The position numbers were made by a program, and so were the translations under genes. Source: a virus. Taken from it: 64,000 bases of DNA. Position 1 is the first letter of the stretch; every line of letters starts with the position of its first letter. The DNA is taken from the IMG/VR virus record IMGVR_UViG_3300046674_000532. The stretch is one strand, 5' to 3'. Below, piece by piece: positions 1 through 64,000 of this stretch. The notes beneath the pieces are model-generated. The model saw nothing but the letters and a program-made list of their open reading frames with translations. It made no database searches and was not told where the DNA came from.

Positions 1-124
1 GGAGCGCGGTCATGGGCTGGCCGTCGGCGAACACTCCGGTCAGGCTGTGGCCGGCCAACGCGTCGGGCTTGGGCAGGTGGTAGGCGAAGCGGCCGTCGGG
101 GAGCTTAAGCGCGTACACGGTCAC
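1..124 (-). CDS. Hypothetical protein, N-terminal part only (gene runs off left edge)
   Basis: GTG at 124 preceded by a GAGAGG-like RBS. GC3-rich frame VTVYALKLPDGRFAYHLPKPD... Too short in the window to appear in the ORF track. Confidence 0.3.
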   Translation of the reverse strand, partial: MTVYALKLPDGRFAYHLPKPDALAGHSLTGVFADGQPMTAL

Positions 125-159
125 AGGTGGTGCCTCTCGAACAGGACTGGATATGGGGA

Positions 160-199
160 GGGCCGCCCACCGCGGGCTGCGAGTCTGGGTGGGCGGCCC
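160..199 (-). terminator. GC-rich hairpin downstream of the 295..729 gene
   Basis: 12-bp stem GGGCCGCCCACC / GGTGGGCGGCCC with a 16-nt loop. A second hairpin lies at about 219..256. There is no U-tract, as is common in high-GC actinobacteria. Confidence 0.45.
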
Positions 200-294
200 G
201 CATGTGGTGGGGGGATCGGGGTCCCGCCCCAGGAGTTGGGGGTGGGACGGGACCCCTGTGGCCTCCGAGGGGGACGGAGGCCGGGGTGGGTGGT

Positions 295-729
295 CTAGTA
301 CCAGTGGCCGGCGTCGTTCCGGCGGTTCACCCAGCTCTGTGTGAACGGCTCCGTGGAGCCCTCCGGGTTGGGGTACCGGTAGACGGCGTGGTGGCGGTAG
401 GTCGCCACGACCGTGGCCCTGGTCGGCTCGCTGCCCTGAAGACTGTGCAAGCTGATCTCGTCACCGACGCGCAGGCCAAGGAAGTCGGTCACCGGGTTTA
501 TGGCGTGGTTCTTCCGCCACCAGGCCCAGCCCTTGGGGCTCCGAGGGGCTTCTGGGAGCGGCTCGAAGTCGTTTCCGGGCCGGTAGTCGTAGATGTACGA
601 CGGGTTGAGGGCGTACGCGGTGAGGCTCAGGGTGGGGCTGTAGAGGTGGCCGCGGTCGAAGGCGGCGGGGACAGCCGAGTCGGGCAGGACGGTGAGGTCC
701 TCCGTGGGCGTTGCGGTCATGGTGTCCAC
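295..729 (-). CDS. Hypothetical protein (144 aa)
   Basis: GC3-rich track ORF. GTG start at 729 has AGGAG about 6 nt upstream. No recognisable motif. Confidence 0.6.
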   Translation of the reverse strand: MDTMTATPTEDLTVLPDSAVPAAFDRGHLYSPTLSLTAYALNPSYIYDYRPGNDFEPLPEAPRSPKGWAWWRKNHAINPVTDFLGLRVGDEISLHSLQGSEPTRATVVATYRHHAVYRYPNPEGSTEPFTQSWVNRRNDAGHWY

Positions 730-852
730 GGGTGCTCCTACTGGCCGTAGTGGTCGGACTGGTCGTCGGGCGCGCCGTCGTGGGAGGCGCAGCCGGGGTA
801 GTGGATGCCGGCCGCGATCTCTTCCGGACGGGCGCCGCAGTCGCAGTTCACG

Positions 853-1464
853 TCAGGCGGCCTGGGCGTACATGCGGCTGGCCATCTGGGCGAAGAACCG
901 CTCGCCCTCGGCGACGTTGCTGATCTCGGCGTCGATCATTTCGGCGATGAGGCCGACGAACTGGTGCGGGGTCATCGAGTTGATGTGGGAGACGAGGACC
1001 GCATCGGCGCGGTAGCCGTCGATGTGCTTCTCCCAGGACCGGAGTGCGGCAGACGCGGTCTCGAAGATGGCCTCGCTGTCGGCGTTCCGCATGCCCGGGT
1101 TGTAGCTGGCCTCGGCGATCAGGTCCATGACGTCGCGGTGTCCGTCCTTCAGCCACTTCTTGCTGTTGAAGCGGCGGGTGCTGACTCCGATGCGGAGGTA
1201 GGAGCGCATTTCGCGGGCGAAGATCTGGCCCTTGGTGGAGCGGGCGGTCAGCTTGGCGGCCTTCTCGGCCTTGCGCTCGGCGGCCAGCAGGTTGTCGGTG
1301 GCGGCCTGGGCGGTGTCGCCATGGCCTTCGAGCTGGCCGCGGGTGGCGCGCCAGGTGACGTCGGGGCGTAGGCGGAGGCTGATGTCCGAGGCGGTCCAGG
1401 TCATGAAGCCTGCGGCGGTGAGGGTGGTCTCGGTGCCGTGGATGCTGATGGCCTCGGTGTTCAT
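853..1464 (-). CDS. Hypothetical protein (203 aa)
   Basis: Track ORF 853..1521 trimmed to the ATG at 1464 (MNTEAISIHG...), which is preceded by GGGGGAG. Confidence 0.6.
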   Translation of the reverse strand: MNTEAISIHGTETTLTAAGFMTWTASDISLRLRPDVTWRATRGQLEGHGDTAQAATDNLLAAERKAEKAAKLTARSTKGQIFAREMRSYLRIGVSTRRFNSKKWLKDGHRDVMDLIAEASYNPGMRNADSEAIFETASAALRSWEKHIDGYRADAVLVSHINSMTPHQFVGLIAEMIDAEISNVAEGERFFAQMASRMYAQAA

Positions 1465-1604: not shown

Positions 1605-2132
1605 TCAGAAAGGCGGCTCGTCCGAATACCCGCCATCCCCCGCACCCGCCCAAACCGACTGCCCGCCCTGCTGCGCCGCCGCACCCGACGTCGCCCACGA
1701 ATCCTCACGCCCCTCCCGCGACGACTCCTGACGCGCCTGCGCGTACGCCTGCTTACCGGCACCGCTCGAGCCGGCCTTCGTCACCTTCGCCGTCGCCATC
1801 TTCAGCGACACAGCCACCTCGTCGGCCTCCAGCTCGTAGACCGTCCGCTTCACGCCCTCACGGTCCTCGTACGACCGCTGCGACAGCCGCCCCTGGATGA
1901 CGACCCGGCAGCCTTTCACCACCGACTCGGCCACGTGCTCGGCCTGCTGCCTCCACACCGACACCGGCAAGAACAGGGTCTGCCCGTCCACCCAGGCCTG
2001 CTTCTCCCGGTCATAGGTCCGCGGTGTCGACGCCACCGTGAACTTCGCAACGCCCGCGCCAGACGGCGTAAAACGCAGCTCAGGATCCGATGTCGCATTG
2101 CCAATCACCGTGATGACGGTTTCCCCACTCAT
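1605..2132 (-). CDS. ssb: Single-stranded DNA-binding protein
   Basis: OB-fold N-terminus [35 protein letters not shown]..., Gly/Gln-rich linker and acidic tail ending DEPPF. ATG at 2132 overlaps the upstream stop (ATGA). Confidence 0.9.
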
Positions 2133-10724: not shown

Positions 10725-11828
10725 CTATACCGAGGGAACCTCCAGTCCAGCGCTGTCCGCGTACTCGTTCATCACACGCAGCGCCTTCACAAACGCACCC
10801 GTCGGCATCTTCCGGATGAGGTGCTGTGCAACGAAGTTCCCGTCGTCGTAGGGCAGGGTCCGCGGCGCAGGGTCCCCGCCGTCCTCGGCCTGCTGGACGG
10901 TCCGCGGTTCAGGGATCGGCTGCTCCGCCAGCACCACCGCGGGCGCATGGAGGTCCGGTGCGGTCTCCGGGACCGGAGCAGGGCCCGGCATCGGATCGGC
11001 ACCTGCTGGCTTGGACTTGGAGACGTCCGGAATTATCACGCCGTGATATTCGGCGGGCCCGGCCGAGCGTTCCGGCGCCGGGTATGGCGCGGGTTGCGGC
11101 GAAGCCGACCGGGCGGCCGCCTGGCTTTGAGCGGCTTCGGCGCGCGCGTCGGCCTTCTCAACCTGCTCCTGCGGGGTCAGCTTCCCGAGGTTGCGGACGT
11201 GCTCCACCCTGCGTGCACCGGTGACGAGGTCCTTCTGCAGCTCGGGGGTGAGCTTCAGCAGGGACAGCTTGGTGGAGAGCGTGGCCTGCGGGATCCCGAG
11301 CCGTTTCGCGGCCTTGAGCTGGGACCCGTAGTGGTCCACCAACTGCTTGAGCGCGTGGGCCTCCTCGAGGTCCGTCATGTCGTCGCGGTGGTAATTCGCG
11401 ATGAACGCGGCCTCGAGGAGGGTCTCGTCGGTGGCCAGCCGCGAGTTGTCGACCCTGACCGGGATGGTGGCCAGTCCGACGCGGCGGGAGGCCTCGAGGC
11501 GTCGGTGGCCGTCGATGACGACGTACTGGGCTCCGTCGTCGATGTCGTCGGCGCGGGCGGCCCGGTCACGGAGATAGGCCTCTGTCGTTCCGACGACGAT
11601 GGGCAGGATGATGCCGACCTGGCGGACGGACTCCACGGTCTCGTCGAGGTTGCGGAGGTGGTTGCGCGGGTTGTCGGGGTTGTCGCTGATCAGCGTGACG
11701 GGCAGTTCGGTGATGGCCGCGGTCGCTGCCGCGTCCCCTCCTATGGCGCTGTTGATGGCGTCGCGCCGTGGGCTGCGCCGGGCCGCGGCGAAGGCGGGCG
11801 CCGGGCCGAGGGTGTCGGCCTTGCTCAT
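10725..11828 (-). CDS. parB: ParB/Spo0J-family partition protein
   Basis: ParB N-terminal box ...YVVIDGHRRLEASRRVGLATIPVRV..., followed by an HTH (AAKRLGIPQATLSTKLSLLKL). Its start overlaps the parA stop. Confidence 0.85.
   Translation of the reverse strand: MSKADTLGPAPAFAAARRSPRRDAINSAIGGDAAATAAITELPVTLISDNPDNPRNHLRNLDETVESVRQVGIILPIVVGTTEAYLRDRAARADDIDDGAQYVVIDGHRRLEASRRVGLATIPVRVDNSRLATDETLLEAAFIANYHRDDMTDLEEAHALKQLVDHYGSQLKAAKRLGIPQATLSTKLSLLKLTPELQKDLVTGARRVEHVRNLGKLTPQEQVEKADARAEAAQSQAAARSASPQPAPYPAPERSAGPAEYHGVIIPDVSKSKPAGADPMPGPAPVPETAPDLHAPAVVLAEQPIPEPRTVQQAEDGGDPAPRTLPYDDGNFVAQHLIRKMPTGAFVKALRVMNEYADSAGLEVPSV
11032..11051. promoter_or_regulatory. parS-like palindrome AATTATCACGCCGTGATATT (copy inside parB)
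   Basis: Same ATTATCACG-N-CGTGATA(A/T)T motif as the two copies upstream of parA. GC-clamped flanks (CCGG...GGCGG). Confidence 0.55.
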
Positions 11829-13074: not shown

Positions 13075-13093
13075 ATTATCACGGCGTGATAAT
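13075..13093. promoter_or_regulatory. parS-like palindrome ATTATCACGgCGTGATAAT (copy A upstream of parA)
   Basis: Perfect 9-bp arms around a central G, 87 nt upstream of the parA ATG. Confidence 0.6.
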
Positions 13094-13132
13094 TCGCCGG
13101 GGTCCAAGACGATCCGGCGCCGGGAAGCCGTG

Positions 13133-13151
13133 ATTATCACGCCGTGATATT
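13133..13151. promoter_or_regulatory. parS-like palindrome ATTATCACGcCGTGATATT (copy B upstream of parA)
   Basis: One arm mismatch. Overlaps the stop codon of the small ORF 13137..13268. Confidence 0.55.
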
Positions 13152-50907: not shown

Positions 50908-50911
50908 GCCG

Positions 50912-51223: not shown

Positions 51224-51226
51224 GGC

Positions 51227-52288: not shown

Positions 52289-52301
52289 GTCGGGCCCCTA
52301 C

Positions 52302-53039: not shown

Positions 53040-53140
53040 GCCGTGCCCCTTTCGCGTGTTCCGCGGGTGTGGGAGAGGTCGCCTGCCTGGCGCCGTCCAC
53101 GGGGGTCAGGGCGTGGTCCCTTGGGTGGTGCTGGTCTGGG

Positions 53141-54037
53141 TCAGGCTGCGTCCGGGGCGCGCAGGCCCCGGTCGATGGCCATCTGCCGGGCGGCTGCGTT
53201 GATGGCGTCCTTGTCGCCGACGGGCTGGCGGGGGGCGTTGCCTCCGGCCGGGCCGCCGGACGGGGCGGGGGGAAGCGTCAGGGGGGCGGCCGGGGCGCCG
53301 AACAGTTCGGGCCGGCGCTGCTTCAGCTTGTCGGCGGCCGCGGCAAGGGTGGCGGCGTCGGCGTCCGGGTTGTCGCGCAGGTCGCGGTCCAGCATGGCGA
53401 GCGCGTCCTGGAGGTTCGGGGCGGTGACGTTTCCCTGGTCGTCGGCGATGTCGAGGGCGCCGAGCCGGGTGAGGGCCTGCTCGCGGGCCAGCGCGCGCCG
53501 GTCCGCGGCGATCTGGGCGCGGTCCTGGTCCAGCTTGGTCCGGTCGTCCTGGAGGGTCTGGGCCTGGGTGGTGAGCTCCTCCTGGCGGCGCTGCTCCTCG
53601 GTGAGGCGTTCCTTGCGGGTGACCTCGGCGTCCTTGAGGAGTTGTCCGAACTTTTTGGGGTCGAAGTCGTCGGGGTCGAAGGGCAGTCCGGCGGATTCGG
53701 CGAGTTCACGCAGGGCGGCGCGGCGGCCCTTGGAGTTCTCCCGGGCCATGATCTTGGTGAAGGCGCTCTGGGTCATCGGGGCGCCGGTGCCGTGGTCGAG
53801 GAGGACGGCTTCGTCCACGCCCGCGGTCTGCGGCGCGGCAGGCTGTGGGGTGGGAGGCTGCTGGCCTGCGCGGGCGGCGACGTCGGCCGGGGAAGGCACG
53901 GCGGGAGCTGCCGGGGCGGGCGCTCCGCCCTGTCCGCCGTCGTTGTAGAACACGGCGGCCGCGAGGACACCCGTGTACGGGTGCGCCCAGGCGGTGCGCG
54001 GGGTGGGGCCGAGGTGGTGCTGCGCGGGGCGACGCAT
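53141..54037 (-). CDS. Scaffolding protein (298 aa)
   Basis: ATG at 54037 has GGGAGGA 9 nt upstream. Central charged coiled coil (TRKERLTEEQRRQEELTTQAQTLQDDRTKLDQDRAQ). Position follows the portal gene. Confidence 0.65.
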   Translation of the reverse strand: MRRPAQHHLGPTPRTAWAHPYTGVLAAAVFYNDGGQGGAPAPAAPAVPSPADVAARAGQQPPTPQPAAPQTAGVDEAVLLDHGTGAPMTQSAFTKIMARENSKGRRAALRELAESAGLPFDPDDFDPKKFGQLLKDAEVTRKERLTEEQRRQEELTTQAQTLQDDRTKLDQDRAQIAADRRALAREQALTRLGALDIADDQGNVTAPNLQDALAMLDRDLRDNPDADAATLAAAADKLKQRRPELFGAPAAPLTLPPAPSGGPAGGNAPRQPVGDKDAINAAARQMAIDRGLRAPDAA

Positions 54038-54069
54038 CTGTCCAAGTCCTCCCAGACTCGTACTGTTTC

Positions 54070-54084
54070 CAGGCCCCGCGCCTG
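54070..54084 (-). promoter_or_regulatory. Start-associated motif CAGGCGCGGGGCCTG (minus-strand sense), copy a
   Basis: 33 nt upstream of the scaffold start. Flanked by GATC (TGATCTCAGGCGCGGGGCCTGGA). Confidence 0.5.
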
Positions 54085-54105
54085 AGATCAAGGACATCAC
54101 AGATG

Positions 54106-55995
54106 TCACGAGGTGTTCCCCCCGCTCCCCTGCTGCCCCTGCGCGGCCGGGCCCTGGGCGGCAGCGGCTGCGGGGTCGTCGGACGGCAGGGCGGGCAGCT
54201 GGACCGCGGGCGCTTCGGGCTCGTCGGGGGCTTCGCGGCCGAGGAACTTCGCGGTCTCGTCCACGTTGCCGAGGGCGTCGGCGAGGTTGCGGGCGTCGTC
54301 GAAGGAGCGGGCGTCGATCCGCTTGATCTCTTCCTCGGCGTCGTCGATGGGCCAGCCGATGTCCTGCAGCATTCGGATCGCCGTCTCCAATGAGATCAGC
54401 TTGTCGGTGCGGGCGTTGCGAATGGACTCGAGGGCTGCCGTCTTGTCGGTGGGACGGAACGAGCCGCGCACGATCTTCGCCGGGAGGGGGGTGATGCCCG
54501 CCCAGTCGGGGTGCTGGCCGGCGAGGAACAACCGTTGGACGAACTTGGGGAGGAGCCGGTCGGCGTGGTCGCGGGCCAGGCGCATCCCGGCGATCAGGGA
54601 GTCCTCCGGGCCCAGCGCCAACTCGAGAGCGTACCCGGACGGCATCTTGGACGGGTCCAGGGTGCCAAGGGCGACGGGCGGGATACGGACGACGTTCGCT
54701 GCGCGTTCGCCGAGGTCGTGGACCTGGTTGCGGAGTTCGGCGAGGTTGCGGCTGGTGTCGACGGTGGTGATGCCGCCGCCCTCGCCGAGCGTGAACACCA
54801 GACCCGGCCCGGCCTCATAGTGCTGCTGCCCGGACACCGACTTCCCGGAGATGCCGATCATCGGGGAGCCGGTGGTGGCCGAGGCGCGGCTGGAGTCGGT
54901 GTCGGAGCCGGACAGTTCGTCGAAGATCTGCAGGGCCTTGGCGAGGCTGGACTGCCCCCAGTGCTCCCCCGGCTCGGGCACGGTGTTGGGGACGTGGATG
55001 ACCGGCAGGAAGTCCTGGTACAGGTCGAGGCGGTCGAGGATCTCGCCCTGCTCGTTGGTGGCGAAGGACGCCTTGCCCATGGGCAGGCTGTCGATGTCGA
55101 CAGGGCCCTTGAGGTCGCCGAGGTCCCAGGTCGCGTCGGTGAGGTAGCAGGTCCTGAACGACGGCTTCTCGGACCAGGGGTACAGGCGGGTGATGGAGCC
55201 GTTGGCGTCGACCTGGTCGCCCTGGCCGAGGACCGGGGCGGACGGGGTGGTGTCGGTGGCTTCGGACATGACGGGGGCGCGCAGGGCCCGGCCGGTGCGG
55301 TCGACACCGTTCGCGGTGCGAGGGCCGATCCAGTCGAGGTGGTAGGTAATGCGGCGCAGCCGGGCCGGCAGCTTGCGGGCCTTGTCCTCCGGGAGTTCCC
55401 ACGCGAAATGCACTTTGTCGGGGTAGTCGGAGCCGTCGTCGTCTTCCCCCACGACCGGGAAGTAGAAGCCGGGGTCGAAGGTTTTCACGCGAACGCGCTG
55501 CTTGTCGCCGTCCCAGTACAGGAGGTAGACGCCGTCGCCGAGGCCTACGGCCTTGCGTTCGGTCTGGAGCATCCGCATCGGCAGGAGTTCCTCGTCGGCC
55601 CACTCCCGCAGCAGCGTCTGGACGCGTTCTGCGGCCGCCGACTCCGGGGTCTGCTGGTCGCCTTCGGCGCCGGGCACGGTGATGATCTGCTCACTGCCCA
55701 GGACGTCCGAGGTCAGCTTGTCGACGAACATCGACGGGTCACCGAACTCGCGCCGGTCGCGGGCCGTATCCCCGTCGACGAAGGCCGACAGTTCGGCGAC
55801 CTGGTTGTGGTCGTAGGCCTTCAGCAGCTTGTAGGAGGCCAGGCGGCGCTCGTCGGCGGCGGGGACCCAGGTCGCGGCGGCTTCCGGAAAGGCGCGGCGG
55901 TGGGGCATGCCGAGGCTGTCGGAGAAGATCGGCTTGTAGTTCAGCCACGACCAGCCGTCGATGACGGCCTCTCTCAAGCCGGTGAAGAGGCCCAC
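54106..55995 (-). CDS. Portal protein (629 aa)
   Basis: GTG start with GGAAGGA upstream. The size and the position after the terminase/nuclease genes are typical. Confidence 0.85.
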   Translation of the reverse strand: MGLFTGLREAVIDGWSWLNYKPIFSDSLGMPHRRAFPEAAATWVPAADERRLASYKLLKAYDHNQVAELSAFVDGDTARDRREFGDPSMFVDKLTSDVLGSEQIITVPGAEGDQQTPESAAAERVQTLLREWADEELLPMRMLQTERKAVGLGDGVYLLYWDGDKQRVRVKTFDPGFYFPVVGEDDDGSDYPDKVHFAWELPEDKARKLPARLRRITYHLDWIGPRTANGVDRTGRALRAPVMSEATDTTPSAPVLGQGDQVDANGSITRLYPWSEKPSFRTCYLTDATWDLGDLKGPVDIDSLPMGKASFATNEQGEILDRLDLYQDFLPVIHVPNTVPEPGEHWGQSSLAKALQIFDELSGSDTDSSRASATTGSPMIGISGKSVSGQQHYEAGPGLVFTLGEGGGITTVDTSRNLAELRNQVHDLGERAANVVRIPPVALGTLDPSKMPSGYALELALGPEDSLIAGMRLARDHADRLLPKFVQRLFLAGQHPDWAGITPLPAKIVRGSFRPTDKTAALESIRNARTDKLISLETAIRMLQDIGWPIDDAEEEIKRIDARSFDDARNLADALGNVDETAKFLGREAPDEPEAPAVQLPALPSDDPAAAAAQGPAAQGQQGSGGNTS

Positions 55996-56013
55996 AGCGA
56001 TCCTTCCGCTATC

Positions 56014-56028
56014 CAGGCCCCGCGCCTG
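56014..56028 (-). promoter_or_regulatory. Start-associated motif CAGGCGCGGGGCCTG, copy b
   Basis: 19 nt upstream of the portal GTG. Context TGATCACAGGCGCGGGGCCTGGA overlaps the nuclease stop codon region. Confidence 0.5.
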
Positions 56029-56031
56029 TGA

Positions 56032-56418
56032 TCAGCGTACGGGCTGGGCATGGTCGGGTTCCCCCGGCTGTTCGGGCAGCGGGACCGTGCGGCGGCCGCC
56101 GTCGTAGTCGACGGCGTGCCCGGCGGCGACGAGGTCCGCGTTGAGGGTGCGGGCGCCCGCGGTGATGGTGCCGAGGATCCGCCCGTACTTCTCGGTCTTG
56201 TCGAGTTCGGTGCGCAGGATCAGGTCGGGCCCGTTCTCGGCGAGCCACTGGGTGGTGAACGCGGTGGCGGCGTCTCCGGCCGGGCTGCCGTGTTCGGGGC
56301 AGTTCACGCCGAGGAGTCGGACGCGTTCGTGGATCTGGATGTGAAATCCCAGGTCGGCGAGGACGTCCAGGGTGTCGCCATCGACGACTCTGGACAGCCG
56401 CGCAGCGTAGACATACAT
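56032..56418 (-). CDS. Staphylococcal-nuclease-like (SNase/thermonuclease) protein (128 aa)
   Basis: VVDGDTLDV...ERVRLLGVNCPE...DKTEKYGRILGTI...LVAAGHAV follows the SNase pattern (DGDT..RL.GIDAPE..D.YGR). Confidence 0.75.
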   Translation of the reverse strand: MYVYAARLSRVVDGDTLDVLADLGFHIQIHERVRLLGVNCPEHGSPAGDAATAFTTQWLAENGPDLILRTELDKTEKYGRILGTITAGARTLNADLVAAGHAVDYDGGRRTVPLPEQPGEPDHAQPVR

Positions 56419-56427
56419 CGGGTTCTC

Positions 56428-58050
56428 CTATCGGCGGCCGCGGAGGCGTTGGTCGCGGTAGTTGGAGGTGCCGAGGCCCTGGGTGGAGGGGTCGGCGAGT
56501 TCGGTGAGGGCGTGGACGGCGGCGTCCATGCGGTCGGGTGAGTCCATGCCGGGGATCCAGGTGACCATCTGGCCCTCGAGGCGGGGGAATTCGCCGAGGT
56601 GGTGGACGAGGCCTTGGGCGTAGAGCTGGGCGATGGGTTCGGCGCGTAGCCGTTTGCCTTGCTTGGCGTGGACTTCGATGATCGATGGCATGAGGAGGCC
56701 GCGGGTTTCGCCTCGTTCGGCAAGCTCTTTCCAGGCCTGGCGGATGATCTGCTTGGCCATGTCGCCGCCGAAGTTGGCTTCGACGACGATGGCGTCGGCC
56801 TGGTACTCGATGGCGAGTTGGCAGGCGGCGAGGCCCCAGGTGTCGGCGCCCATGCGGTCGGATGCGTCGGCGAGGAGGTAGAGGTGGCCTTCGCGGTCGC
56901 GTCCTGCTGCGCACAGGCCGGCTTCGTCGTTTCCGTCTCCTTCTCCGCCGGCGTGGTCGACGGCGACGATGCTGCGGGTGAGGTCGATGCCGCGGAACGC
57001 CATGGGGGTGATGCGGTGGTCGGTGATCCATGGCCATTTCCACACGCCGCCCTCGAGTGGGCGGGGTTTTTGCATGTAGAGGGACCACCAGACGCGTTCC
57101 CCGACGGCGCGGCGGATCTTCTGGAGGGCTTTGGTGCCGTAGCGGATGGGCCACAGGGGGCGGCCGATGTCGCGGCCGAGGGCGTCGTTTTCGCTGTCGG
57201 CGATGGCGGGGAGGTCGAGGATGGTCCAGTCGTCGGCGTCTTCTCCGGCGAGGATGCGGCCGGCGAGGTCCTGTTCGTGCCAGCGGGTCTGGATGACCAG
57301 GATGGATCCGCCGGGTTCGATGCGGGTGTTGAGGACGGATGTCCACCAGTCCCACAGGCGGCGCCGCATGGTGGGGGATTCGGCGTCGGCGGCGTCTTTG
57401 ATGGGGTCGTCGACGACGGCGAGGTGGGCGCCCTTGCCGGTGAGGCCGCCGCCGACGCCTGCGGTGACGAGGCCGCCTTCGAGGCGTTCGCCGGTGTCGG
57501 GGTCGGCGAGGTCGAACCGGTTCGCCGCTTTGCTGCCGGAGTGGAGGGCGAGGCCGATCTGGGGGCCGTAGGAGACGATCGCGTCGCGGATCCACCGTCC
57601 GTGGTCGTCGGCGAGGTCCGCGGAGTATGAGGCGATCATGACGCGGTGGTCGGGGTGCCTCGACAGGTACCAGAGCGGCGCCCACCGGGCCGCACGCCGG
57701 CTTTTGCCGTGCCGCGGAGGCATGGTGATGAGGACCTTGCGGGGCCGGCCGCGGGCGATGTCGCGGAACACCTGGTCGATCAGGTCCAGGTGGCGGGCCT
57801 GCTTCTCCTTCCCGTCGGTGAGGATCGCCGACATGGCGCCCGGCGACCGCTTGAGGGCCATGTCGCGTTCGACCCCGGCGAGGACGGTGCGGACCTCTCC
57901 ACTGGCCCGGCAGGCGATATGGCGGCGCTGAGCCCGGTTCAGGCGCCGGTACTGGGCGACCAGTTGGAGTAGCTCCTCCGCTCCCTGGACGACGTCATCA
58001 ACGTCCTCGTCGTGCCCCGGGCCGACGTCAGGTGTCGTCGCTGTGGTCAT
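56428..58050 (-). CDS. Terminase large subunit (540 aa)
   Basis: Walker A-like MPPRHGKSRRAA, then ...VMIASYSADLADDHG... and a C-terminal nuclease-type acidic region (IVAVDHAGGEGDGNDEAG). Confidence 0.9.
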   Translation of the reverse strand: MTTATTPDVGPGHDEDVDDVVQGAEELLQLVAQYRRLNRAQRRHIACRASGEVRTVLAGVERDMALKRSPGAMSAILTDGKEKQARHLDLIDQVFRDIARGRPRKVLITMPPRHGKSRRAARWAPLWYLSRHPDHRVMIASYSADLADDHGRWIRDAIVSYGPQIGLALHSGSKAANRFDLADPDTGERLEGGLVTAGVGGGLTGKGAHLAVVDDPIKDAADAESPTMRRRLWDWWTSVLNTRIEPGGSILVIQTRWHEQDLAGRILAGEDADDWTILDLPAIADSENDALGRDIGRPLWPIRYGTKALQKIRRAVGERVWWSLYMQKPRPLEGGVWKWPWITDHRITPMAFRGIDLTRSIVAVDHAGGEGDGNDEAGLCAAGRDREGHLYLLADASDRMGADTWGLAACQLAIEYQADAIVVEANFGGDMAKQIIRQAWKELAERGETRGLLMPSIIEVHAKQGKRLRAEPIAQLYAQGLVHHLGEFPRLEGQMVTWIPGMDSPDRMDAAVHALTELADPSTQGLGTSNYRDQRLRGRR

Positions 58051-58531
58051 CCAGTGCGCCTTCGTCGCCCTCGTCGGGGGCTTCGTCGTCCTCGGGATCG
58101 GGGTCGCCTGCTGCTCCGATCAGGCTGCGGAGTTCGGCGATGCTGGCCTGGCTGATGGGGACGGCTCCCCCGCCGGGCCCGGACACCTCGGCGCGGATGG
58201 GTTCGGCCACCCCGTACAGGCGGATCCGTTCGGCGATGAGCCGGCGGGCCGCCTCGACGGCCTTGAGGTCGCCCTTGAGCGCTTTGGGCCACACGGCGGC
58301 CAGGAGGCGTTCGAAGCGGGCTCCTTCGACCTCGCGCAGGTTCTCGACTGCTTCCTTCTCTTCCAGCCGGTTGCGCTGGATGGCGCGCCAGAAGTCTTTG
58401 CGGGCAGCGCCGTCGTCGGCGTAGTCGAGGCGGTCGGCGATGGCTTCGAAGTCCATGCCGGCGAGCTTCAGTGCGATGAGCTGCTTGCGTCGCTGCGCGG
58501 TGACGGCCTGCTGGGCTTTGGATGCGGGCAT
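58028..58531 (-). CDS. Terminase small subunit (167 aa)
   Basis: N-terminal HTH-like region (RRKQLIALKLAGMDFEAIADRL), central coiled coil and acidic tail. Overlaps the large-subunit start. Confidence 0.7.
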   Translation of the reverse strand: MPASKAQQAVTAQRRKQLIALKLAGMDFEAIADRLDYADDGAARKDFWRAIQRNRLEEKEAVENLREVEGARFERLLAAVWPKALKGDLKAVEAARRLIAERIRLYGVAEPIRAEVSGPGGGAVPISQASIAELRSLIGAAGDPDPEDDEAPDEGDEGALDDHSDDT

Positions 58532-60064: not shown

Positions 60065-60505
60065 ATGGACGAGACAAGCTTTCAGGATGCCCTGTTCGCC
60101 ACGGACACCGAGCCCACGCCGTACGTGCTCACCGTGAAGCAGCCCTGGGCGTGGGCCATCATCCACGCGGGCAAGGACGTCGAAAACCGCAGCAGGCCTG
60201 TCAACTACCGGGGCAAGCTGCTCATCCAGGCTGGCAAGAGCTACGCCCCCGAGGGTGACAAGTACCTGCGCGATCTGGGCATCACTCCCCCGGCCGACCT
60301 GCCGCGCGGCTGCATCATCGGCTCTGTCGAGGTCGTCGGCTCCACCAGCCGGTCCACCTCCGAGTGGGCCATGGACGGATACCAGCACTGGCTGCTCGCC
60401 GACCCGAAGCCTGCTGCGCAGCTCCTGCCGTGCCGGGGATCGCTGAGCATGTTCCGCGCCCCCGAGGGTTGGGAGCAGGCGTTCACGTCGCCTTCGGGGG
60501 CATGA
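60065..60505 (+). CDS. ASCH-domain protein (146 aa)
   Basis: LTVKQPWAWAIIHAGKDVENRSRPVNYRGKLLIQAG matches the ASCH N-terminal pattern (..QPWA..I..G.K..E.R......G...IHA). Confidence 0.7.
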   Translation: MDETSFQDALFATDTEPTPYVLTVKQPWAWAIIHAGKDVENRSRPVNYRGKLLIQAGKSYAPEGDKYLRDLGITPPADLPRGCIIGSVEVVGSTSRSTSEWAMDGYQHWLLADPKPAAQLLPCRGSLSMFRAPEGWEQAFTSPSGA

Positions 60506-61574
60506 ACTCGAAACTGCGCGTGAGAAGGCGTCGGGGGTCGGAGTAGCGCTTCCTCAGCGAGCCCGTGAGGCTCTTGCCGGGCTTTCCTGTACTCACCTTC
60601 CCGGTCTCGCGCCAGCGTGGGGAGCGCACGCAGTAGGCGATGACTGCCGGATGGGCGACAACTCGCCTGTAACGGCAGCCTTGCTGGTACAAGTGCTGGC
60701 CGATCCATTCGGAGATACGGCCGCTGATCCCCAGCCCCTGGTAGTCGGGCAGGACGACGGACCGGTGGTCCATCTTGATGTTCTTCGCCTGGGCGTGCGG
60801 GAAGTGCATGTAGGCGCTGAAGGCTACGAGGTCGTCACCGATGAAGCCGCCGAAGCAGCGTGCGGAGCGGTTCAGGTCGGCGCTCAGATAGTGATGGCGG
60901 CGAAACAGCGGCCAGACGGTGTGATCGACCTGGTGGATGCGGAGTTCGAGCGCGGGGTGGGGTTGAACCTGCCTCCACGCGAAGGAGTTGGCCGCGACGT
61001 CGAACACCCAGTCGGGCTGGAGCCAGTCGGTGACGTCGTAGTGGCAGGTGACGGCGACGAACTGGCGGTCCTGGCGGCGCACTGCCTTTTGCACCGTGTG
61101 GGAGGCGACCTTGGCGACCTGACGGTCGACGACCGAGGTGAACTCGTCGACGACGACCAGGCCGTCGGTCTCGGCGAGGGAGCGGGCGATGGAGGCACGG
61201 AACGCCTCGCCGTTGGACAGCGTGTGGTGCGGGCGCATCCACGCGGGCGGTGAGCCGAGGCCGACCGAGGTGAGCAGACCGATGATGTCCTTGATGCTCA
61301 TGCTGGCCGGGAAGTCGTCGAGCAGCGACGCGTCCGGGGACCATACATAGTTCGCGGCCATCTCCTCGGGCCACACGTGCCGGGCCAGGGTGGACTTGCC
61401 TGCTCCGGAGGGTCCGACGATGAGACCGACGTTCCAGGGCCGGTCCTCGATGGGCAGGTTCGCGTCGAGGGTGTGGCCGGCTTTCTGCTCGATCGGGACG
61501 TCGAACATGCCGGCCATCTGCAGGACGCGGGCGGAGCTGCAGACGGTGGTGCTGACGTTGACTTGTGCGCGCAT
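60483..61574 (-). CDS. ABC-type ATPase fused to a GNAT-like acyltransferase domain (363 aa)
   Basis: Walker A GPSGAGKST, ABC signature LSNGEAFR, Walker B LVVVDEFTS. The C-terminal half has RSVVLPDYQGLGISGRISEW (acetyl-CoA Q/RxxGxG/A-like motif). Confidence 0.7.
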   Translation of the reverse strand: MRAQVNVSTTVCSSARVLQMAGMFDVPIEQKAGHTLDANLPIEDRPWNVGLIVGPSGAGKSTLARHVWPEEMAANYVWSPDASLLDDFPASMSIKDIIGLLTSVGLGSPPAWMRPHHTLSNGEAFRASIARSLAETDGLVVVDEFTSVVDRQVAKVASHTVQKAVRRQDRQFVAVTCHYDVTDWLQPDWVFDVAANSFAWRQVQPHPALELRIHQVDHTVWPLFRRHHYLSADLNRSARCFGGFIGDDLVAFSAYMHFPHAQAKNIKMDHRSVVLPDYQGLGISGRISEWIGQHLYQQGCRYRRVVAHPAVIAYCVRSPRWRETGKVSTGKPGKSLTGSLRKRYSDPRRLLTRSFEFMPPKAT

Positions 61575-61589
61575 GCCGGGGTGTCCCTT

Positions 61590-62165
61590 CTATGCCATGA
61601 GGGCGCGGACGCGGCGCCCTTCGGCGGCCAGCCGCTCGAGGAGTTCGGTCTGCTGCTGCTCGTCCAGGCATTCGACGATGACGCCCCACGTTGCTTCGGT
61701 GTCCTCGATGGGGGCGTCGCCCTCTTCGGGGAGCTGCGGGGGGACGATCAGTGCGGCGACGTCTTCGTCGGTGTATCCGGTGCCTTCGTAGTCGCCGTCG
61801 AGGTAGGAGATGAGTTCGGCGAGGGCGTCTTTGTCGTTCTCTCCGAGCTCGGCGGTGCGGTTGTCGGCGAGGTTGATCCGGCGGGCGGTGTTGTCGTCGC
61901 AGACGACGACTTCGCAGCGGGCTGTCTCGTGCCCTTCGGCGGCGAGCCCCTGCATGGTGTGGTTGCCGGCCAGGACAATGAGGGGGCCGTCAGGGATTTC
62001 CCGGACGACGAGCGACCTGTACTGGCCGTTGCGGCGGAGGGATTTGCGGATGGCGTCGACGTCGCCGCGTTTCGCGTTGCCGGGGAACGGGGTGAGTTCA
62101 TCCAGGGGGATGTCGGCGGTGCGGACGTAGGTGACGCCGGCGTCGGAGTCGGTGCTTTCGGTCAT
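61590..62165 (-). CDS. ParB-like nuclease (ParB/Srx N-terminal) domain protein (191 aa)
   Basis: LTPFPGNAKRGDVDAIRKSLRRNGQYRSLVV...LAGNHTMQG follows the ParBc pattern (..NPR......l..Si...G...P..V....i.G.HR). The C-terminal half is acidic. Confidence 0.75.
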   Translation of the reverse strand: MTESTDSDAGVTYVRTADIPLDELTPFPGNAKRGDVDAIRKSLRRNGQYRSLVVREIPDGPLIVLAGNHTMQGLAAEGHETARCEVVVCDDNTARRINLADNRTAELGENDKDALAELISYLDGDYEGTGYTDEDVAALIVPPQLPEEGDAPIEDTEATWGVIVECLDEQQQTELLERLAAEGRRVRALMA

Positions 62166-62193
62166 GGCGGTGGGGCTCCCGCTGTGTGGTTGT

Positions 62194-62208
62194 CAGGCCC
62201 CGCGCCTG
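62194..62208 (-). promoter_or_regulatory. Start-associated motif CAGGCGCGGGGCCTG, copy d
   Basis: 29 nt upstream of the 62165 ATG, within the duplicated leader 62161..62221. Confidence 0.55.
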
Positions 62209-62267
62209 TCACAGATGATCGCCGATTTCCGTGGTTCTGTTCCCTGCGCCCTGGTTGGGGCGTCACG

Positions 62268-62975
62268 ATGCCCGGCATGAGAGATGTGCGTGTGAGGGGG
62301 GCTGTGGCGGCGTGTGTGGCTGCTGCGGTGGTGGTGTTGGCGGGTTGCGGGGGCGGATCGGACGACGGCGGGAAGTCGAAGGCGTCGCCGTCGGTGTCGG
62401 CGGTGGGTTCGTCGCCGCCTGCTGAGGTGGAGCCGTCGCCGACGTATCCGCCGGGCCCGGAGGGGGATGTGGACCGGGCCGTGGATGAGGCGGGTCTGGT
62501 GTATGACGATTCGTCGTACACCGATGCGGCCGCGTTCGTGCAGGACATCTGCGACTCGATGGTGACGCAGTCGAAGAACTGGAACCCGGCGCAGTGGCTG
62601 GCGGAGGGTGGCTATCTCGGGGATGACGGGGAGCAGATCCTGGATGTGGGGGTGCCGAAGCTGTGCCCGCGGTGGAAGTCGGCGTTGAAGCAGGCGGAGG
62701 CGGGGACGTACGTGCGGTTCATCTCGTCTGGGGAGTTCGAGGTGAAGGCGGATCCGGCGCCGTATGACTCTGACAGCGATTCGGATGTTGAGGAGATCAA
62801 GGCGGGCACGTATGTGGCGCGGGGGCATTTCTCGGACTGCTACTGGGAGCGGACCGGGGCGGACGGTCAGATTATTGAGAATCGTGCGGTGACTCAGGCG
62901 ACGCGGATGACGGTGACGTTGCGGGTTGGGGAGCTGTTCTCGAATGACTGCGGGACGTTTCGGCCGGTCGGCTGA
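62268..62975 (+). CDS. Lipoprotein (235 aa)
   Basis: Signal peptide with lipobox AAVVVLAGC, then a Ser/Pro-rich linker. The mature domain has four Cys. Confidence 0.7.
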   Translation: MPGMRDVRVRGAVAACVAAAVVVLAGCGGGSDDGGKSKASPSVSAVGSSPPAEVEPSPTYPPGPEGDVDRAVDEAGLVYDDSSYTDAAAFVQDICDSMVTQSKNWNPAQWLAEGGYLGDDGEQILDVGVPKLCPRWKSALKQAEAGTYVRFISSGEFEVKADPAPYDSDSDSDVEEIKAGTYVARGHFSDCYWERTGADGQIIENRAVTQATRMTVTLRVGELFSNDCGTFRPVG

Positions 62976-63199
62976 CCGATCCCGGATACGCGAAGGTCCC
63001 CGCCGCGCTCCCGGGGGGTGGGGTGCGGGCGGGGCCGGGTGCTCGGCCTGCCTGGGGGGATGGGCGGGTTCGAGCGGTGGGGGTGTGGGGGTTACGGCCT
63101 GCCCCGCCCCGGCGCGGGGGTGCTAGGACGGGACAGGCTGTGCACTTTTGATGGTGGGGTATGGCCGCGCGTTTGTCCGAGGCGCTTCCCCTCTGGGTG

Positions 63200-64000
63200 C
63201 TACTCCCCTGCGTCCGGGCCGGGTCCCGGGCCGTACTTGCCGCGGACGGCCTGGCCGCTGCCGGGCATGCGGTGGATGCGGCCTTCCTTGACCATCCGGG
63301 ACAGCCGGTTCTCGAGCGTGGAGGAAGTCAGCCCGGTGAGGCGCTCGATGTCGTCCTTGTGCAGGTAGTTGACCTCCTCCCCCATCGGGTCGGCGGCGTC
63401 CTCGAGGACGGTGAGGATCTTTTCGTCTGCGTTGGGCCCCTTCGGCGGTCCGGTGAGGGTGGCCCCGCCGCCGGCCTGTCCCGTCTCGCCGTCTTCGTCG
63501 TCCGGGAGGATGGAGGTCCGGCCGATCTCGTCCGCGCGCTCGAAGTCCGGCCAGTCAGCGGGGTGGGCGATGGCGGTTTCGTCGATGTAGGGGGCGGCGG
63601 ACTCGAGGATGAAGTCGCGCATCATCTCGGCGGCTCCGCCGGGGCCCAGGGTGTAGCCGAGCCCGTAGGTGGATTCGGGGTCCTGGAGGGCGACGCTCTC
63701 GTCGTAGATGAGGGGCCGGTTGACGTCCCAGGCCGGGGGGATCTGGCCGGGGTCGACGCCTTCGAAGCCGGTGGTGACGAGGTTGGACTGGTCGGAGTCG
63801 GTGCGGAGCATGACCAGGGAGCCGCCCTGGATGACGTTGGTCCGCAGGGCGGTTGAGCCGCCGAGCTTGTCGGCGTTCACGGCCTGGTTGACGATGGTGA
63901 GGATGATGCCGAGGGAGCGGGCCTTCGCGGCCAGCGCCTCCACGATGATCTTTGCTTCCTTGCGGTGGTCGACCAGCTCGGACAGCGGGACGTGGGCTTC
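63200..64000 (-). CDS. FtsK/SpoIIIE-family DNA translocase, C-terminal part (gene continues beyond the right edge)
   Basis: Motor-domain end ...ARSLGIILTIVNQAV...TNVIQGGSLVMLRTDS..., followed by a C-terminal winged-helix segment (LTGLTSSTLENRLSRMVKEGRIHR). Confidence 0.7.
   Translation of the reverse strand, partial: EAHVPLSELVDHRKEAKIIVEALAAKARSLGIILTIVNQAVNADKLGGSTALRTNVIQGGSLVMLRTDSDQSNLVTTGFEGVDPGQIPPAWDVNRPLIYDESVALQDPESTYGLGYTLGPGGAAEMMRDFILESAAPYIDETAIAHPADWPDFERADEIGRTSILPDDEDGETGQAGGGATLTGPPKGPNADEKILTVLEDAADPMGEEVNYLHKDDIERLTGLTSSTLENRLSRMVKEGRIHRMPGSGQAVRGKYGPGPGPDAGE

What the first reader, a model, noticed from the sequence alone, without database searches (positions are those of the whole stretch)
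1..64000. Phage-plasmid architecture: a full virion/lysis module combined with Rep, DnaA boxes, ParABS, recombinase and an FtsK-like translocase
The window has a complete late operon running from terminase to lysis. It also has genes expected of a low-copy plasmid: a Rep-like HTH protein with internal DnaA boxes (15084..16238), parA-parB with three copies of a dedicated palindrome, a catalytically intact tyrosine recombinase (25953..27101) that could act as a Cre-like dimer resolvase, and an FtsK/SpoIIIE-type gene at the right edge. I could find no attP-like core next to the recombinase, no CI/S24-type repressor and no flanking host gene. Extrachromosomal lysogeny is known from P1/N15 and from some actinophages and Streptomyces plasmid-phages, and it is a plausible lifestyle here.
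Basis: partly seen in the sequence, partly recalled or inferred. Interest (0 to 1): 0.7.

Follow-up and report, generated by a model that had tools for sequence, protein, structure and literature searches.

The report
Streptomyces pZL12-type phage-plasmid, new member
The window is about two thirds of a roughly 97-kb Streptomyces element that is both a complete tailed phage and a low-copy plasmid with a conjugation-type DNA pump, and it belongs to the already described pZL12/pSAM1 family, so it is a well-equipped but ordinary new member.

Summary
The window is syntenic and co-oriented with the characterised Streptomyces plasmid-phage pZL12 (ΦZL12). It also matches dozens of 85-101 kb Streptomyces plasmids, the 'pSAM1' phage-plasmid community.

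Confirmed features:
- a complete head, tail and lysis operon;
- type-Ia-like ParA plus ParB, with exactly three copies of a private palindrome;
- a winged-helix Rep-like protein, 39% identical to pZL12.20c;
- an intact tyrosine recombinase;
- an FtsK-fold ATPase at the right edge.

New details:
- The two DnaA boxes inside rep are invariant in 7 homologues, held by rare T-ending codons. They lie in a region coding a predicted disordered linker, next to a local GC dip, so an origin embedded in rep is likely.
- The recombinase is 43% identical to MrpA, the multimer resolvase of plasmid SCP2.
- Rep homologues listed from genomes sit on contigs of about 85-134 kb, never on chromosome-sized ones.

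Circular closure of this element, virion production and transfer were not testable. Novelty: new member of a known kind. Interest is low to moderate.

The parts
1605..2132 (-). Single-stranded DNA-binding protein, in the early/replication-recombination module
   Evidence: JGI precomputed Pfam SSB on the identical contig. pZL12.1c and the S. janthinus plasmid carry ssb at the same relative position.
10725..11828 (-). ParB (centromere-binding partition protein)
   Evidence: Pfam ParB_N 4.7e-12 and HTH_ParB 3.6e-10. NCBIfam parB_part 83 bits, above the cut-off of 58.
11825..12988 (-). ParA, a Walker-type partition ATPase of 387 aa with an N-terminal extension of about 115 aa (type-Ia-like)
   Evidence: Pfam AAA_31 8.7e-26 and CbiA 6.7e-19. 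The ATPase domain starts near aa 117. NCBIfam partition RepA/SopA-type hits.
11033..11049 (.). parS-like palindrome, copy 1, inside parB
   Evidence: The S. janthinus plasmid has a copy at the same relative position in its parB.
13076..13150 (.). Two parS-like palindromes (13076-13092 and 13134-13150) upstream of parA; a candidate centromere and/or operator
   Evidence: Exactly 3 sites in 64 kb against 0.02 expected. The S. janthinus plasmid has 3 copies upstream of its parA.
14641..15087 (-). SLOG/YAcAr-family protein, overlapping the end of rep by 4 bases
   Evidence: Pfam YAcAr 8.2e-11. A SLOG gene lies in the same block of the S. janthinus plasmid.
15084..16337 (-). Rep-like protein: N-terminal winged HTH, predicted disordered linker, C-terminal helical domain. 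Candidate replication initiator.
   Evidence: 39% identity, E 6e-62, to pZL12.20c. 471 homologues; those listed from genome assemblies are on contigs of about 85-134 kb or shorter, never Mb-scale. AlphaFold2 domains. Foldseek gives only generic wHTH matches. No Pfam, PHROG or NCBIfam hit.
15760..15783 (+). Two DnaA-box 9-mers (TTGTCCACA and TTATCCACA), 15 bp start to start, inside rep
   Evidence: Both are invariant in 7 homologues including pZL12. The flanking T comes from rare codons CCT/CTT/GCT while the amino acid varies. Tandem Repeats Finder calls the pair a 15-bp repeat.
15650..15759 (.). Invariant CCCCTTCCCT motif (15727-15736, coding strand) and a local AT-rich, low-GC3 stretch; candidate unwinding region of the origin
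   Evidence: GC falls to 0.53 and GC3 to 0.55, against 0.9-1.0 in the rest of the gene. The motif is invariant in 7 sequences. The encoded peptide is predicted disordered, pLDDT below 50.
20167..21123 (-). Rad52/Rad22-family single-strand annealing recombinase
   Evidence: Pfam 1.3e-15.
22189..22209 (.). Perfect 21-bp palindrome AGGCATTGCA-N-TGCAATGCCT in the divergent region between the leftward early operon and the rightward WYL gene; candidate operator. Further copies at 1516-1536 and 8337-8357.
   Evidence: 3 sites against 0.00 expected. Absent from relatives' loci.
22254..22703 (+). Small WYL-domain protein, conserved at the switch region
   Evidence: Pfam WYL 1.6e-5. 38% identity to pZL12.31. 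A WYL gene lies at the same place in the S. janthinus plasmid.
25953..27101 (-). MrpA-family (Cre-like) tyrosine recombinase; candidate multimer resolvase
   Evidence: 43% identity, E 2e-77, full length to SCP2.07c. All 17 PDB sequence hits are Cre/Tre, best E 2.3e-7. Pfam Phage_integrase 24.6 bits, just below its cut-off.
27516..27551 (-). mrpS-like 36-bp recombination site upstream of the DUF6221-recombinase operon
   Evidence: 26/36 identical to the published mrpS oligonucleotide (PMC4685060 supplement). Best match in the window; the next best is 21/36. 0 of 200 shuffles reach 26. Conserved in the NBC_01483 plasmid.
27098..27493 (-). DUF6221 protein, overlapping the start of the recombinase gene by 4 bases
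   Evidence: Pfam DUF6221 2.5e-8. A DUF6221 gene lies next to the recombinase in NZ_CP046906.
32135..33763 (-). Lysis cassette: holin 32135-32497 and endolysin 32540-33763
   Evidence: phrog_9752 holin 1.5e-29; phrog_17214 endolysin 9.7e-69.
33760..47818 (-). Tail module: peptidase-like protein, fibre/Tal-like 972-aa protein, minor tail proteins, Dit, tape measure 40832-45925, chaperone-position genes, tail tube 47015-47818
47958..58531 (-). Head and packaging module: connector genes (DUF6093), major capsid 51227-52288, decoration, scaffold, portal 54106-55995, SNase-like protein, TerL 56428-58050, and a gene in the small-subunit position 58028-58531
60483..62165 (-). ABC/AAA-like ATPase and a ParB-like nuclease-domain protein upstream of the packaging genes
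   Evidence: phrog_723 5e-44. About 75% nucleotide identity to gene 2 of several Gordonia phages.
63200..64000 (-). C-terminal 266 aa of a 762-aa membrane-anchored FtsK/SpoIIIE-fold ATPase; candidate conjugative dsDNA translocase. The gene continues beyond the window.
   Evidence: The identical JGI contig gives the full gene. Foldseek: TcpA 1.8e-9, FtsK motor 6e-9, EccC/EssC. Weak NCBIfam plasmid_TraB hit, E 2.4e-7. Hydrophobic N-terminal segments and a GVTGSGK Walker A motif. Homologues are named FtsK/SpoIIIE or T4SS DNA-transfer protein.

Best explanation
The window is about 64 kb of a roughly 97-kb pZL12/pSAM1-type Streptomyces phage-plasmid, a temperate siphovirus-like phage whose prophage is a low-copy plasmid.

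Inferred working:
1. Replication starts at an origin embedded in the rep gene. The origin consists of two DnaA boxes, a conserved pyrimidine motif and an AT-rich stretch, all in the part of the gene that codes for a disordered linker. The winged-helix Rep protein and host DnaA act there.
2. Copies are segregated by a type-Ia-like ParA/ParB pair acting on a private palindromic centromere, with two copies upstream of parA and one inside parB.
3. Plasmid multimers are resolved by an MrpA-type (Cre-like) tyrosine recombinase at a 36-bp mrpS-like site upstream of its operon.
4. The element can spread horizontally in two ways. One is as virions, made by the complete terminase-to-lysis operon. The other is by Streptomyces-type double-stranded DNA conjugation, driven by a membrane-anchored FtsK-fold ATPase next to the packaging genes.

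Shown here: the gene content, the homologies, the repeat statistics, the DNA-level conservation and the distribution of relatives on plasmid-sized contigs. Inferred: the activity of every module and the circular extrachromosomal state of this particular copy.
For: Family and synteny:
- Synteny and patchy 75-80% nucleotide identity with pZL12.
- Up to 53% of the virion half aligns with 86-94 kb Streptomyces plasmids.
- pZL12 is described in the literature as a plasmid-phage with defined replication and transfer loci (PMC3583192, PMC4487206, PMC7157519). A 'pSAM1' phage-plasmid community is defined in PMC7969092.

Extrachromosomal state of relatives:
- Listed Rep homologues from genome assemblies lie on contigs of about 85-134 kb or shorter, and none on a chromosome-sized contig.
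- A 100% identical JGI assembly shows no recognisable host gene in 8.1 kb plus 2.7 kb of extra flank. It implies a 97,168-bp contig.

Modules:
- ParABS.
- Origin.
- Resolvase and site.
- Virion and lysis genes.
- FtsK-fold Tra ATPase.
Against: - Circular closure of this copy was not verified. I could not reach the far end of the 97-kb contig.
- The Rep-like protein has no hit to any curated Rep family, and its fold match is only a generic winged helix. I could not read the pZL12 paper to confirm that pZL12.20c is its repA.
- A related plasmid (S. janthinus) has an HTH protein at the same position without any DnaA box, so the box-containing origin is not universal in the family.
- The Tra ATPase is not detectably similar in sequence to pZL12's FtsK-like pZL12.71c (E 0.085). 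It also falls far below the NCBIfam TraB cut-off.
- For the relative pSAM1, virion DNA was not detected in one study (PMC11302927), so members of this family can be silent or defective.
Confidence: 0.8

Rival explanations
1. It is a plasmid that carries a no-longer-functional prophage. The plasmid functions work, but no infectious virions are made.
For: For the family member pSAM1, fewer than 0.01% of virome reads mapped to the plasmid, and the authors suggest that its phage may be defective or uninduced (PMC11302927). A C-5 methyltransferase gene in the window appears truncated: 19775-20167 matches only the first 85 of 324 profile positions. This shows some decay.
Against: All the virion, packaging and lysis genes that I inspected are long intact ORFs with strong coding signal and family matches. 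The relative pZL12 is reported to complete a plasmid/lytic cycle (title and citations of Zhong et al. 2010 in PMC4487206 and PMC5431353).
Confidence: 0.17
2. It is a chromosomally integrated prophage or an actinomycete integrative conjugative element. On this reading the recombinase is the integrase, and ParAB/Rep act only transiently.
For: A tyrosine recombinase is present. ΦNon1 of Nonomuraea, described as reminiscent of pZL12, both integrates at a tRNA gene and replicates (PMC5431353). One homologue of the Tra ATPase lies on an 8.8-Mb chromosome.
Against: The recombinase is closest to the SCP2 multimer resolvase MrpA and carries an mrpS-like site. There is no tRNA in the window. There are no recognisable host genes in 75 kb of the window plus flanks. 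The listed Rep homologues are on plasmid-sized contigs or shorter fragments only.
Confidence: 0.02
3. It is a linear plasmid-prophage with real physical ends, N15-like or a Streptomyces linear replicon.
For: One JGI assembly has two contigs of 77,321 and 21,369 bp. Their union is exactly 97,168 bp, the size of the contig that carries the identical Tra protein P0121. The outer ends may therefore coincide. The S. janthinus record is labelled linear in PLSDB.
Against: pZL12, pSLE1 and NBC_01483 are circular records (PMC4487206 showed an 8.4-kb terminal overlap in PacBio data). No protelomerase, terminal protein or telomere-associated genes were seen. A multimer resolvase is a feature of circular replicons.
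Confidence: 0.01

Closest known systems
Streptomyces plasmid-phage pZL12 / ΦZL12 (GQ919031, 90,435 bp, circular; Zhong et al. 2010)
   Same: Same overall gene order and strand layout over the whole window. Homologous Rep-like protein (39% identity), with both DnaA boxes and the CCCCTTCCCT motif conserved. Also shared: ParA/ParB, the WYL protein (38%), a tyrosine recombinase at the same position (29%), virion genes (about 75% nucleotide identity in blocks), and an FtsK-like gene next to the packaging genes.
   Different: Only 5-12% of the DNA aligns by megablast. The Tra ATPase here is not detectably homologous in sequence to pZL12.71c. pZL12 has two full C-5 and one N-6 methyltransferase genes where the window has one fragment. 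The ORF between rep and parA is different.
pSAM1-type phage-plasmid community (S. ambofaciens pSAM1, S. leeuwenhoekii pSLE1 and many 85-101 kb Streptomyces plasmids; Pfeifer et al. 2021)
   Same: Size class, host genus and shared backbone. The pSAM1 Tra ATPase is 69% identical (P0137). 37% of the virion half aligns with pSAM1 at 76.5% identity.
   Different: Accessory genes, operator palindromes and rep alleles differ between members. The nearest plasmid in PLSDB covers at most 53% of the virion half, so this is a distinct lineage within the family.
MrpA/mrpS multimer-resolution system of S. coelicolor plasmid SCP2 (Warth et al. 2011, 2013)
   Same: The recombinase is 43% identical over its full length. 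A 36-bp site with the same architecture and orientation upstream of the recombinase operon matches at 26 of 36 positions, including the central GGAAC(G/A) and the flanking AGAA/TTA bases.
   Different: The arms of the window site are less symmetric: 9 of 15 positions against 13 of 15 in mrpS. A DUF6221 gene sits between the site and the recombinase gene. Activity is untested.
Coliphage P1 (prototype phage-plasmid)
   Same: Same logic: a low-copy plasmid prophage with ParA/ParB/parS of the long-ParA type, a Cre-type recombinase with an adjacent site for resolving dimers, and DnaA boxes at the plasmid origin. The DnaA boxes at P1 oriR are from my own knowledge. Cre is the best solved-structure match of the recombinase.
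   Different: No detectable homology other than to Cre. P1 is a myovirus of enterobacteria and has no conjugation-type translocase.
Streptomyces TraB-type conjugative translocases (pSVH1, pIJ101, SCP2) and the clostridial FtsK-family coupling protein TcpA
   Same: Membrane-anchored FtsK-fold P-loop ATPase encoded on a plasmid. TcpA and FtsK motors are the top structural matches. There is a weak NCBIfam plasmid_TraB match. Some homologues carry an FtsK gamma domain.
   Different: It fails the sequence thresholds of Pfam FtsK_SpoIIIE and NCBIfam TraB. No clt locus has been demonstrated; there is only a cluster of C-rich 8-mers downstream.

Membership tests
pZL12/pSAM1-type Streptomyces phage-plasmids | Backbone synteny with pZL12: early/replication genes, ParB-ParA, Rep, recombination genes, divergent switch, recombinase, lysis, tail, head, terminase, tra | tested here: met
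   Gene-by-gene comparison with the GQ919031 annotation and pairwise protein comparisons.
pZL12/pSAM1-type Streptomyces phage-plasmids | Nucleotide similarity to several family members in both the plasmid half and the virion half | tested here: met
   75-80% identity, up to 53% coverage, and the top-ranked matching plasmids are 85-94 kb.
pZL12/pSAM1-type Streptomyces phage-plasmids | Replicon of about 85-100 kb, maintained extrachromosomally as a circle | tested here: inconclusive
   An identical Tra protein lies on a 97,168-bp JGI contig, and no host genes were seen in the flanks. The contig ends could not be read. Relatives are circular (PMC4487206).
pZL12/pSAM1-type Streptomyces phage-plasmids | Production of infectious virions that re-establish the plasmid | not testable with these tools
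   Needs induction, a virome or a plaque assay.
MrpA/mrpS multimer-resolution system | Tyrosine recombinase homologous to MrpA, with the catalytic residues in place | tested here: met
   43% identity, E 2e-77. The R..E, HxxR, W and Y positions are conserved in the alignment with Cre.
MrpA/mrpS multimer-resolution system | mrpS-type 36-bp inverted-repeat site adjacent to and upstream of the recombinase | tested here: met
   27516-27551 matches the published mrpS at 26/36. 0 of 200 shuffles reach this. Conserved in a related plasmid.
MrpA/mrpS multimer-resolution system | Resolves plasmid multimers without host factors | not testable with these tools
   Needs a two-site recombination assay.
Type Ia ParABS partition system | Walker-type ParA with an N-terminal extension, followed by a ParB with ParB_N and HTH domains | tested here: met
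Type Ia ParABS partition system | Dedicated repeated centromere sequence next to the operon | tested here: met
   3 palindromes against 0.02 expected. The S. janthinus plasmid has the same arrangement. ParB binding is untested.
FtsK/SpoIIIE-family conjugative translocase (TraB-like) | FtsK-type motor fold with Walker A and B motifs | tested here: met
   Foldseek probability 1.00 to TcpA and FtsK motors, E 2e-9 to 1e-7. GVTGSGK motif.
FtsK/SpoIIIE-family conjugative translocase (TraB-like) | N-terminal membrane anchor | tested here: met
   Hydropathy segments at aa 20-38 and 84-103 of the 85%-identical homologue P0123. P0121, identical to the window protein but lacking its first 110 aa, has one at its aa 11-31, about aa 121-141 of the full protein.
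FtsK/SpoIIIE-family conjugative translocase (TraB-like) | Passes the curated sequence models (Pfam FtsK_SpoIIIE; NCBIfam plasmid_TraB equivalog) | tested here: not met
   No Pfam hit at E<=0.01. plasmid_TraB scores 29.6 bits against a cut-off of 800. I therefore describe it as an FtsK-fold, TraB-like ATPase and do not file it as a TraB equivalog.
FtsK/SpoIIIE-family conjugative translocase (TraB-like) | clt locus with repeated 8-bp recognition motifs | tested here: inconclusive
   5 of the 22 minus-strand matches to three related C-rich 8-mers (ACCCCCAC, ACCCCACC, CACCCCAC) cluster in the 225-bp region downstream of the gene. No comparative or binding evidence.
Theta-replicating plasmid initiator with an origin dependent on DnaA boxes | DNA-binding initiator protein encoded at the origin | tested here: inconclusive
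   A winged HTH is confidently modelled, but there is no match to any curated Rep family. Homology to pZL12.20c is clear, but that gene's role could not be checked because the paper is not held.
Theta-replicating plasmid initiator with an origin dependent on DnaA boxes | DnaA boxes plus an AT-rich region, conserved as DNA | tested here: met
   Both boxes are invariant in 7 of 7 homologues through rare T-ending codons. There is a GC dip to 0.53.
Integrating temperate phage (attP/Int) | Integrase with an adjacent attP that shares a core with a chromosomal (often tRNA) site; host flanks | tested here: not met
   No tRNA and no host flanks. The recombinase groups with a resolvase. Relatives are never on chromosome-sized contigs.

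The most novel reading that the evidence does not exclude
The element is a three-way mobile replicon. The same roughly 97-kb DNA would be inherited as a ParABS-partitioned plasmid, packaged into virions, and moved between hyphae as double-stranded DNA by an FtsK-fold translocase. That translocase would be a non-orthologous replacement of the one in pZL12. The plasmid origin would be written inside the rep coding sequence: DnaA boxes and an unwinding region kept in place by rare codons within a disordered-linker segment, so that one stretch of DNA carries both a protein code and an origin code.
Probability: 0.35. Interest if true: 0.5.

Novelty: new member of a known kind. Interest (0 to 1): 0.3.

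Why it matters
Phage-plasmids of Streptomyces are little studied. pZL12 is treated in the actinobacteriophage literature as a singleton (PMC7157519). Yet the searches here show hundreds of relatives on plasmid-sized contigs of about 85-134 kb across the genus.

This member gives concrete, testable sequence features:
- a candidate origin embedded in the rep gene, which synonymous recoding could test;
- a private parS;
- an MrpA/mrpS-type resolution site.

All three could serve as parts for Streptomyces vectors. The family also combines virion and conjugative transfer routes, which bears on gene flow among antibiotic producers. None of this overturns current understanding.

Tried and rejected
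- Exact 60-70-mer scans of genome contigs, viral contigs and metagenome contigs for the window or its left flank found nothing. The source record and its ends could therefore not be retrieved.
- Walking along the identical JGI contig failed. P0121 is not in the position index, and the truncated end gene has no indexed homologue.
- The pZL12 paper (PMC2897331) is not held, so I could not confirm which ORF is repA or which are traA-C.
- Window-wide enrichment of DnaA-box-like 9-mers is not significant. Only the conserved pair inside rep is meaningful.
- A 16+7+16 palindrome at 28039-28077 was considered as a lox-like site. I rejected it because it is not conserved in the plasmid with the 86%-identical recombinase region. 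A GC-rich hairpin at 27574-27603 looks like a terminator.
- The 348-aa ORF 13522-14568 is not a DciA or Tra3-like homologue.
- Foldseek on the Rep model gave only generic winged-helix hits.
- PADLOC found no defence system in the rightward-strand gene clusters.
- Rfam found nothing at gathering thresholds.
- No iteron array was found apart from the 15-bp box pair.
- The operator-like palindrome has no counterpart in the S. janthinus switch region.

Full report
**What the window is.** The sequence is 69% G+C, has no tRNA gene, and carries about 83 genes, most of them on the minus strand. Megablast finds a single related phage record, Streptomyces phage ZL12 (pZL12, GQ919031, 90,435 bp, circular), with patchy 75-80% identity in both halves of the window. 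Against PLSDB the plasmid-like half matches 211 records. The virion half matches 41 records, all Streptomyces, and the top-ranked are 85-94 kb. The best of them covers 53% of the virion half at 76% identity. The pZL12 annotation is co-linear and co-oriented with the window. The shared order is SSB, ParB/ParA, a 461-aa ORF (pZL12.20c), methylases, recombination genes, a short rightward cluster that starts with a small regulator, a tyrosine recombinase, lysis, tail, head and terminase genes, and then an FtsK/SpoIIIE-like gene with two neighbours.

**What the literature says about the family.**
- pZL12 is described as a plasmid-phage with defined replication and transfer loci. [quoted passage not shown]
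- pSLE1 of S. leeuwenhoekii is an 86-kb circle syntenic with pZL12 (PMC4487206).
- Pfeifer et al. define a 'pSAM1' phage-plasmid community (PMC7969092).

The kind is therefore known.

**The phage side.** Pfam and PHROGs identify the following:
- TerL at 56428-58050, portal at 54106-55995, then scaffold and decoration proteins;
- a Phage_cap_E major capsid at 51227-52288;
- a DUF6093 connector-region protein and the tail tube at 47015-47818;
- a 1,697-aa tape measure at 40832-45925, then Dit, minor tail and fibre proteins;
- a peptidase-like protein, an endolysin at 32540-33763 (E 1e-68) and a holin at 32135-32497 (E 1.5e-29).

All are long uninterrupted ORFs. The 'complete late operon from terminase to lysis' is confirmed.

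**Partition.** ParB (ParB_N plus HTH_ParB) and a 387-aa ParA whose ATPase domain begins near residue 117 form an overlapping pair. The palindrome TTATCACG[C/G]CGTGATA occurs exactly three times in 64 kb against 0.02 expected. Two copies lie upstream of parA and one lies inside parB. The S. janthinus family plasmid has the same core: three copies upstream of its parA and one at the same relative position in its parB. That conserved arrangement supports a functional centromere and/or operator.

**Replication.** The Rep-like ORF (15084-16337, open to 16589) has no Pfam, PHROG or NCBIfam match. It is 39% identical (E 6e-62) to pZL12.20c and has 471 homologues. Those listed from genome assemblies lie on contigs of about 85-134 kb or on shorter fragments, never on Mb-scale contigs. 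Five GTDB loci are on contigs of 85-101 kb.

An AlphaFold2 model (mean pLDDT 68) shows three parts:
- a confident winged-HTH domain (aa 46-160);
- a low-confidence linker (aa 163-230);
- a confident helical C-terminal domain.

Foldseek gives only generic winged-helix matches.

Window-wide such 9-mers are not enriched. However, in an alignment of the window, five genomic homologues and pZL12, both boxes are invariant. The base that completes each box is a T supplied by the rare codons CCT, CTT or GCT, while the encoded residue varies (P, L or A). A following CCCCTTCCCT motif is also invariant. GC3 falls from 0.9-1.0 to 0.55-0.70, and total GC falls to 0.53, just downstream of the boxes.

My reading is an origin embedded in rep, made of DnaA boxes (or Rep iterons that resemble them) plus an unwinding region. 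Two cautions apply. The S. janthinus plasmid has an HTH protein in this slot without any box. I also could not read the pZL12 paper to confirm that 20c is its repA.

**The recombinase.**
- By sequence its only solved-structure relatives are Cre and its derivative Tre (17 hits, best E 2.3e-7, near full length). The R..E, HxxR, W and Y positions are conserved.
- It is 43% identical (E 2e-77) over its whole length to SCP2.07c.
- The 36-bp inverted repeat just upstream of SCP2.07c is identical to the published mrpS oligonucleotide (PMC4685060 supplement). SCP2.07c is therefore MrpA, which 'catalyze[s] the resolution of plasmid multimers' (PMC3218068).
- In the window the best match to mrpS is at 27516-27551, with 26 of 36 positions identical. 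The next best match is 21, and none of 200 shuffles reached 26.
- The site has the same orientation as in SCP2. It lies just upstream of the DUF6221-recombinase operon and is conserved in the NBC_01483 plasmid.

Its statement that no recombination core is present needs correcting.

**The right edge.** A JGI metagenome contig is 100% identical to the last 1,835 bases of the window and extends 8.1 kb further. It shows that the truncated ORF is a 762-aa protein.
- Curated sequence models barely see it: NCBIfam plasmid_TraB scores 29.6 bits against a cut-off of 800, and there is no Pfam hit.
- It is not detectably similar to pZL12.71c.
- An AlphaFold2 model (pLDDT 78) matches the FtsK-family coupling protein TcpA, FtsK motor domains and EccC/EssC at E 2e-9 to 1e-6.
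- It has hydrophobic N-terminal segments and a GVTGSGK Walker A motif.
- Its 353 homologues are mostly on 86-100 kb Streptomyces contigs. They are named FtsK/SpoIIIE (pSAM1), DNA translocase FtsK (variants with a gamma domain) or T4SS DNA-transfer protein.

Given its position, equivalent to the pZL12 tra locus, I read it as a Streptomyces-type conjugative translocase. It works like TraB but does not pass the TraB family threshold.

**Lifestyle.** An identical copy of the Tra protein lies on a 97,168-bp JGI contig. That length equals the union of the 77,321-bp and 21,369-bp contigs that cover the window. No recognisable host gene is seen in the extra 10.8 kb. I could not reach the contig ends, so circular closure of this copy rests on analogy with circular relatives. 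No S24/XRE-type repressor was found. Candidate regulatory parts are as follows:
- a conserved small WYL-domain protein at the divergent switch;
- two WhiB-like proteins;
- a weak HTH protein at 59673-60032;
- a 21-bp palindrome present three times, against 0.00 expected, ahead of leftward operons.

**Verdict.** The element is a new member of the pZL12/pSAM1-type Streptomyces phage-plasmids. The details added here are the rep-embedded conserved DnaA-box region, the MrpA/mrpS-type resolution module, and the FtsK-fold Tra ATPase that differs from pZL12's. They are useful, but they do not make the element a new kind.

Noticed in passing
window 1516-1536, 8337-8357, 22189-22209: A second palindrome family, AGGCATTGCA-N-TGCAATGCCT. 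Two copies are perfect and one has 2 mismatches, against 0.00 expected. Each lies in an intergenic gap ahead of a leftward operon, and one sits 45 bp upstream of the WYL gene. It looks like the operator set of an unidentified dimeric repressor. It is absent from relatives' loci, which would fit immunity-specific operators.
   Followed up: partly
window 62976-63199: The 225-bp gap downstream of the FtsK-like gene is very C-rich on the coding strand. It holds 5 of the window's 22 minus-strand matches to three related C-rich 8-mers (ACCCCCAC, ACCCCACC, CACCCCAC), two of them in tandem. This could be a clt-like recognition locus for the translocase.
   Followed up: partly
window 62277-62975 (+): A rightward gene between the Tra ATPase gene and the ParB-like nuclease gene. 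It encodes a 232-aa protein with a signal peptide and an LAGC lipobox and has no family match. A lipoprotein at this position could be a surface or superinfection exclusion factor.
   Followed up: no
window 18833-20167: Only the first 85 of 324 profile positions of a C-5 cytosine methyltransferase are encoded (19775-20167). The DNA to its left has weak coding signal. pZL12 has two full methyltransferase genes here, so this looks like a decayed gene.
   Followed up: no
window 17157-18678: The identical JGI assembly breaks into two contigs that overlap over exactly this stretch, around the WhiB-like gene 17907-18833. This suggests strain-level variation or a repeat in the source community.
   Followed up: no
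window 13522-14568 (-): The slot between rep/SLOG and parA is variable. Here it holds a 348-aa ORF with no detectable homology. The S. janthinus plasmid has a DciA-family (helicase-loader-like) gene there, and pZL12 has a 'Tra3-like' gene.
   Followed up: partly
window 1-25000 and 39001-64000: Each plasmid search reported one record with 99% or higher identity that did not appear among the listed rows. It must be a short shared segment. I did not identify it.
   Followed up: no
window 60483-61574 (-): A P-loop ATPase with ABC-like motifs, a weak GNAT-like C-terminal part, and a PADLOC 'mad3' match (1.7e-12). It shares about 75% nucleotide identity over 270 bp with gene 2 of several Gordonia phages, an unusually high cross-genus similarity.
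   Followed up: no
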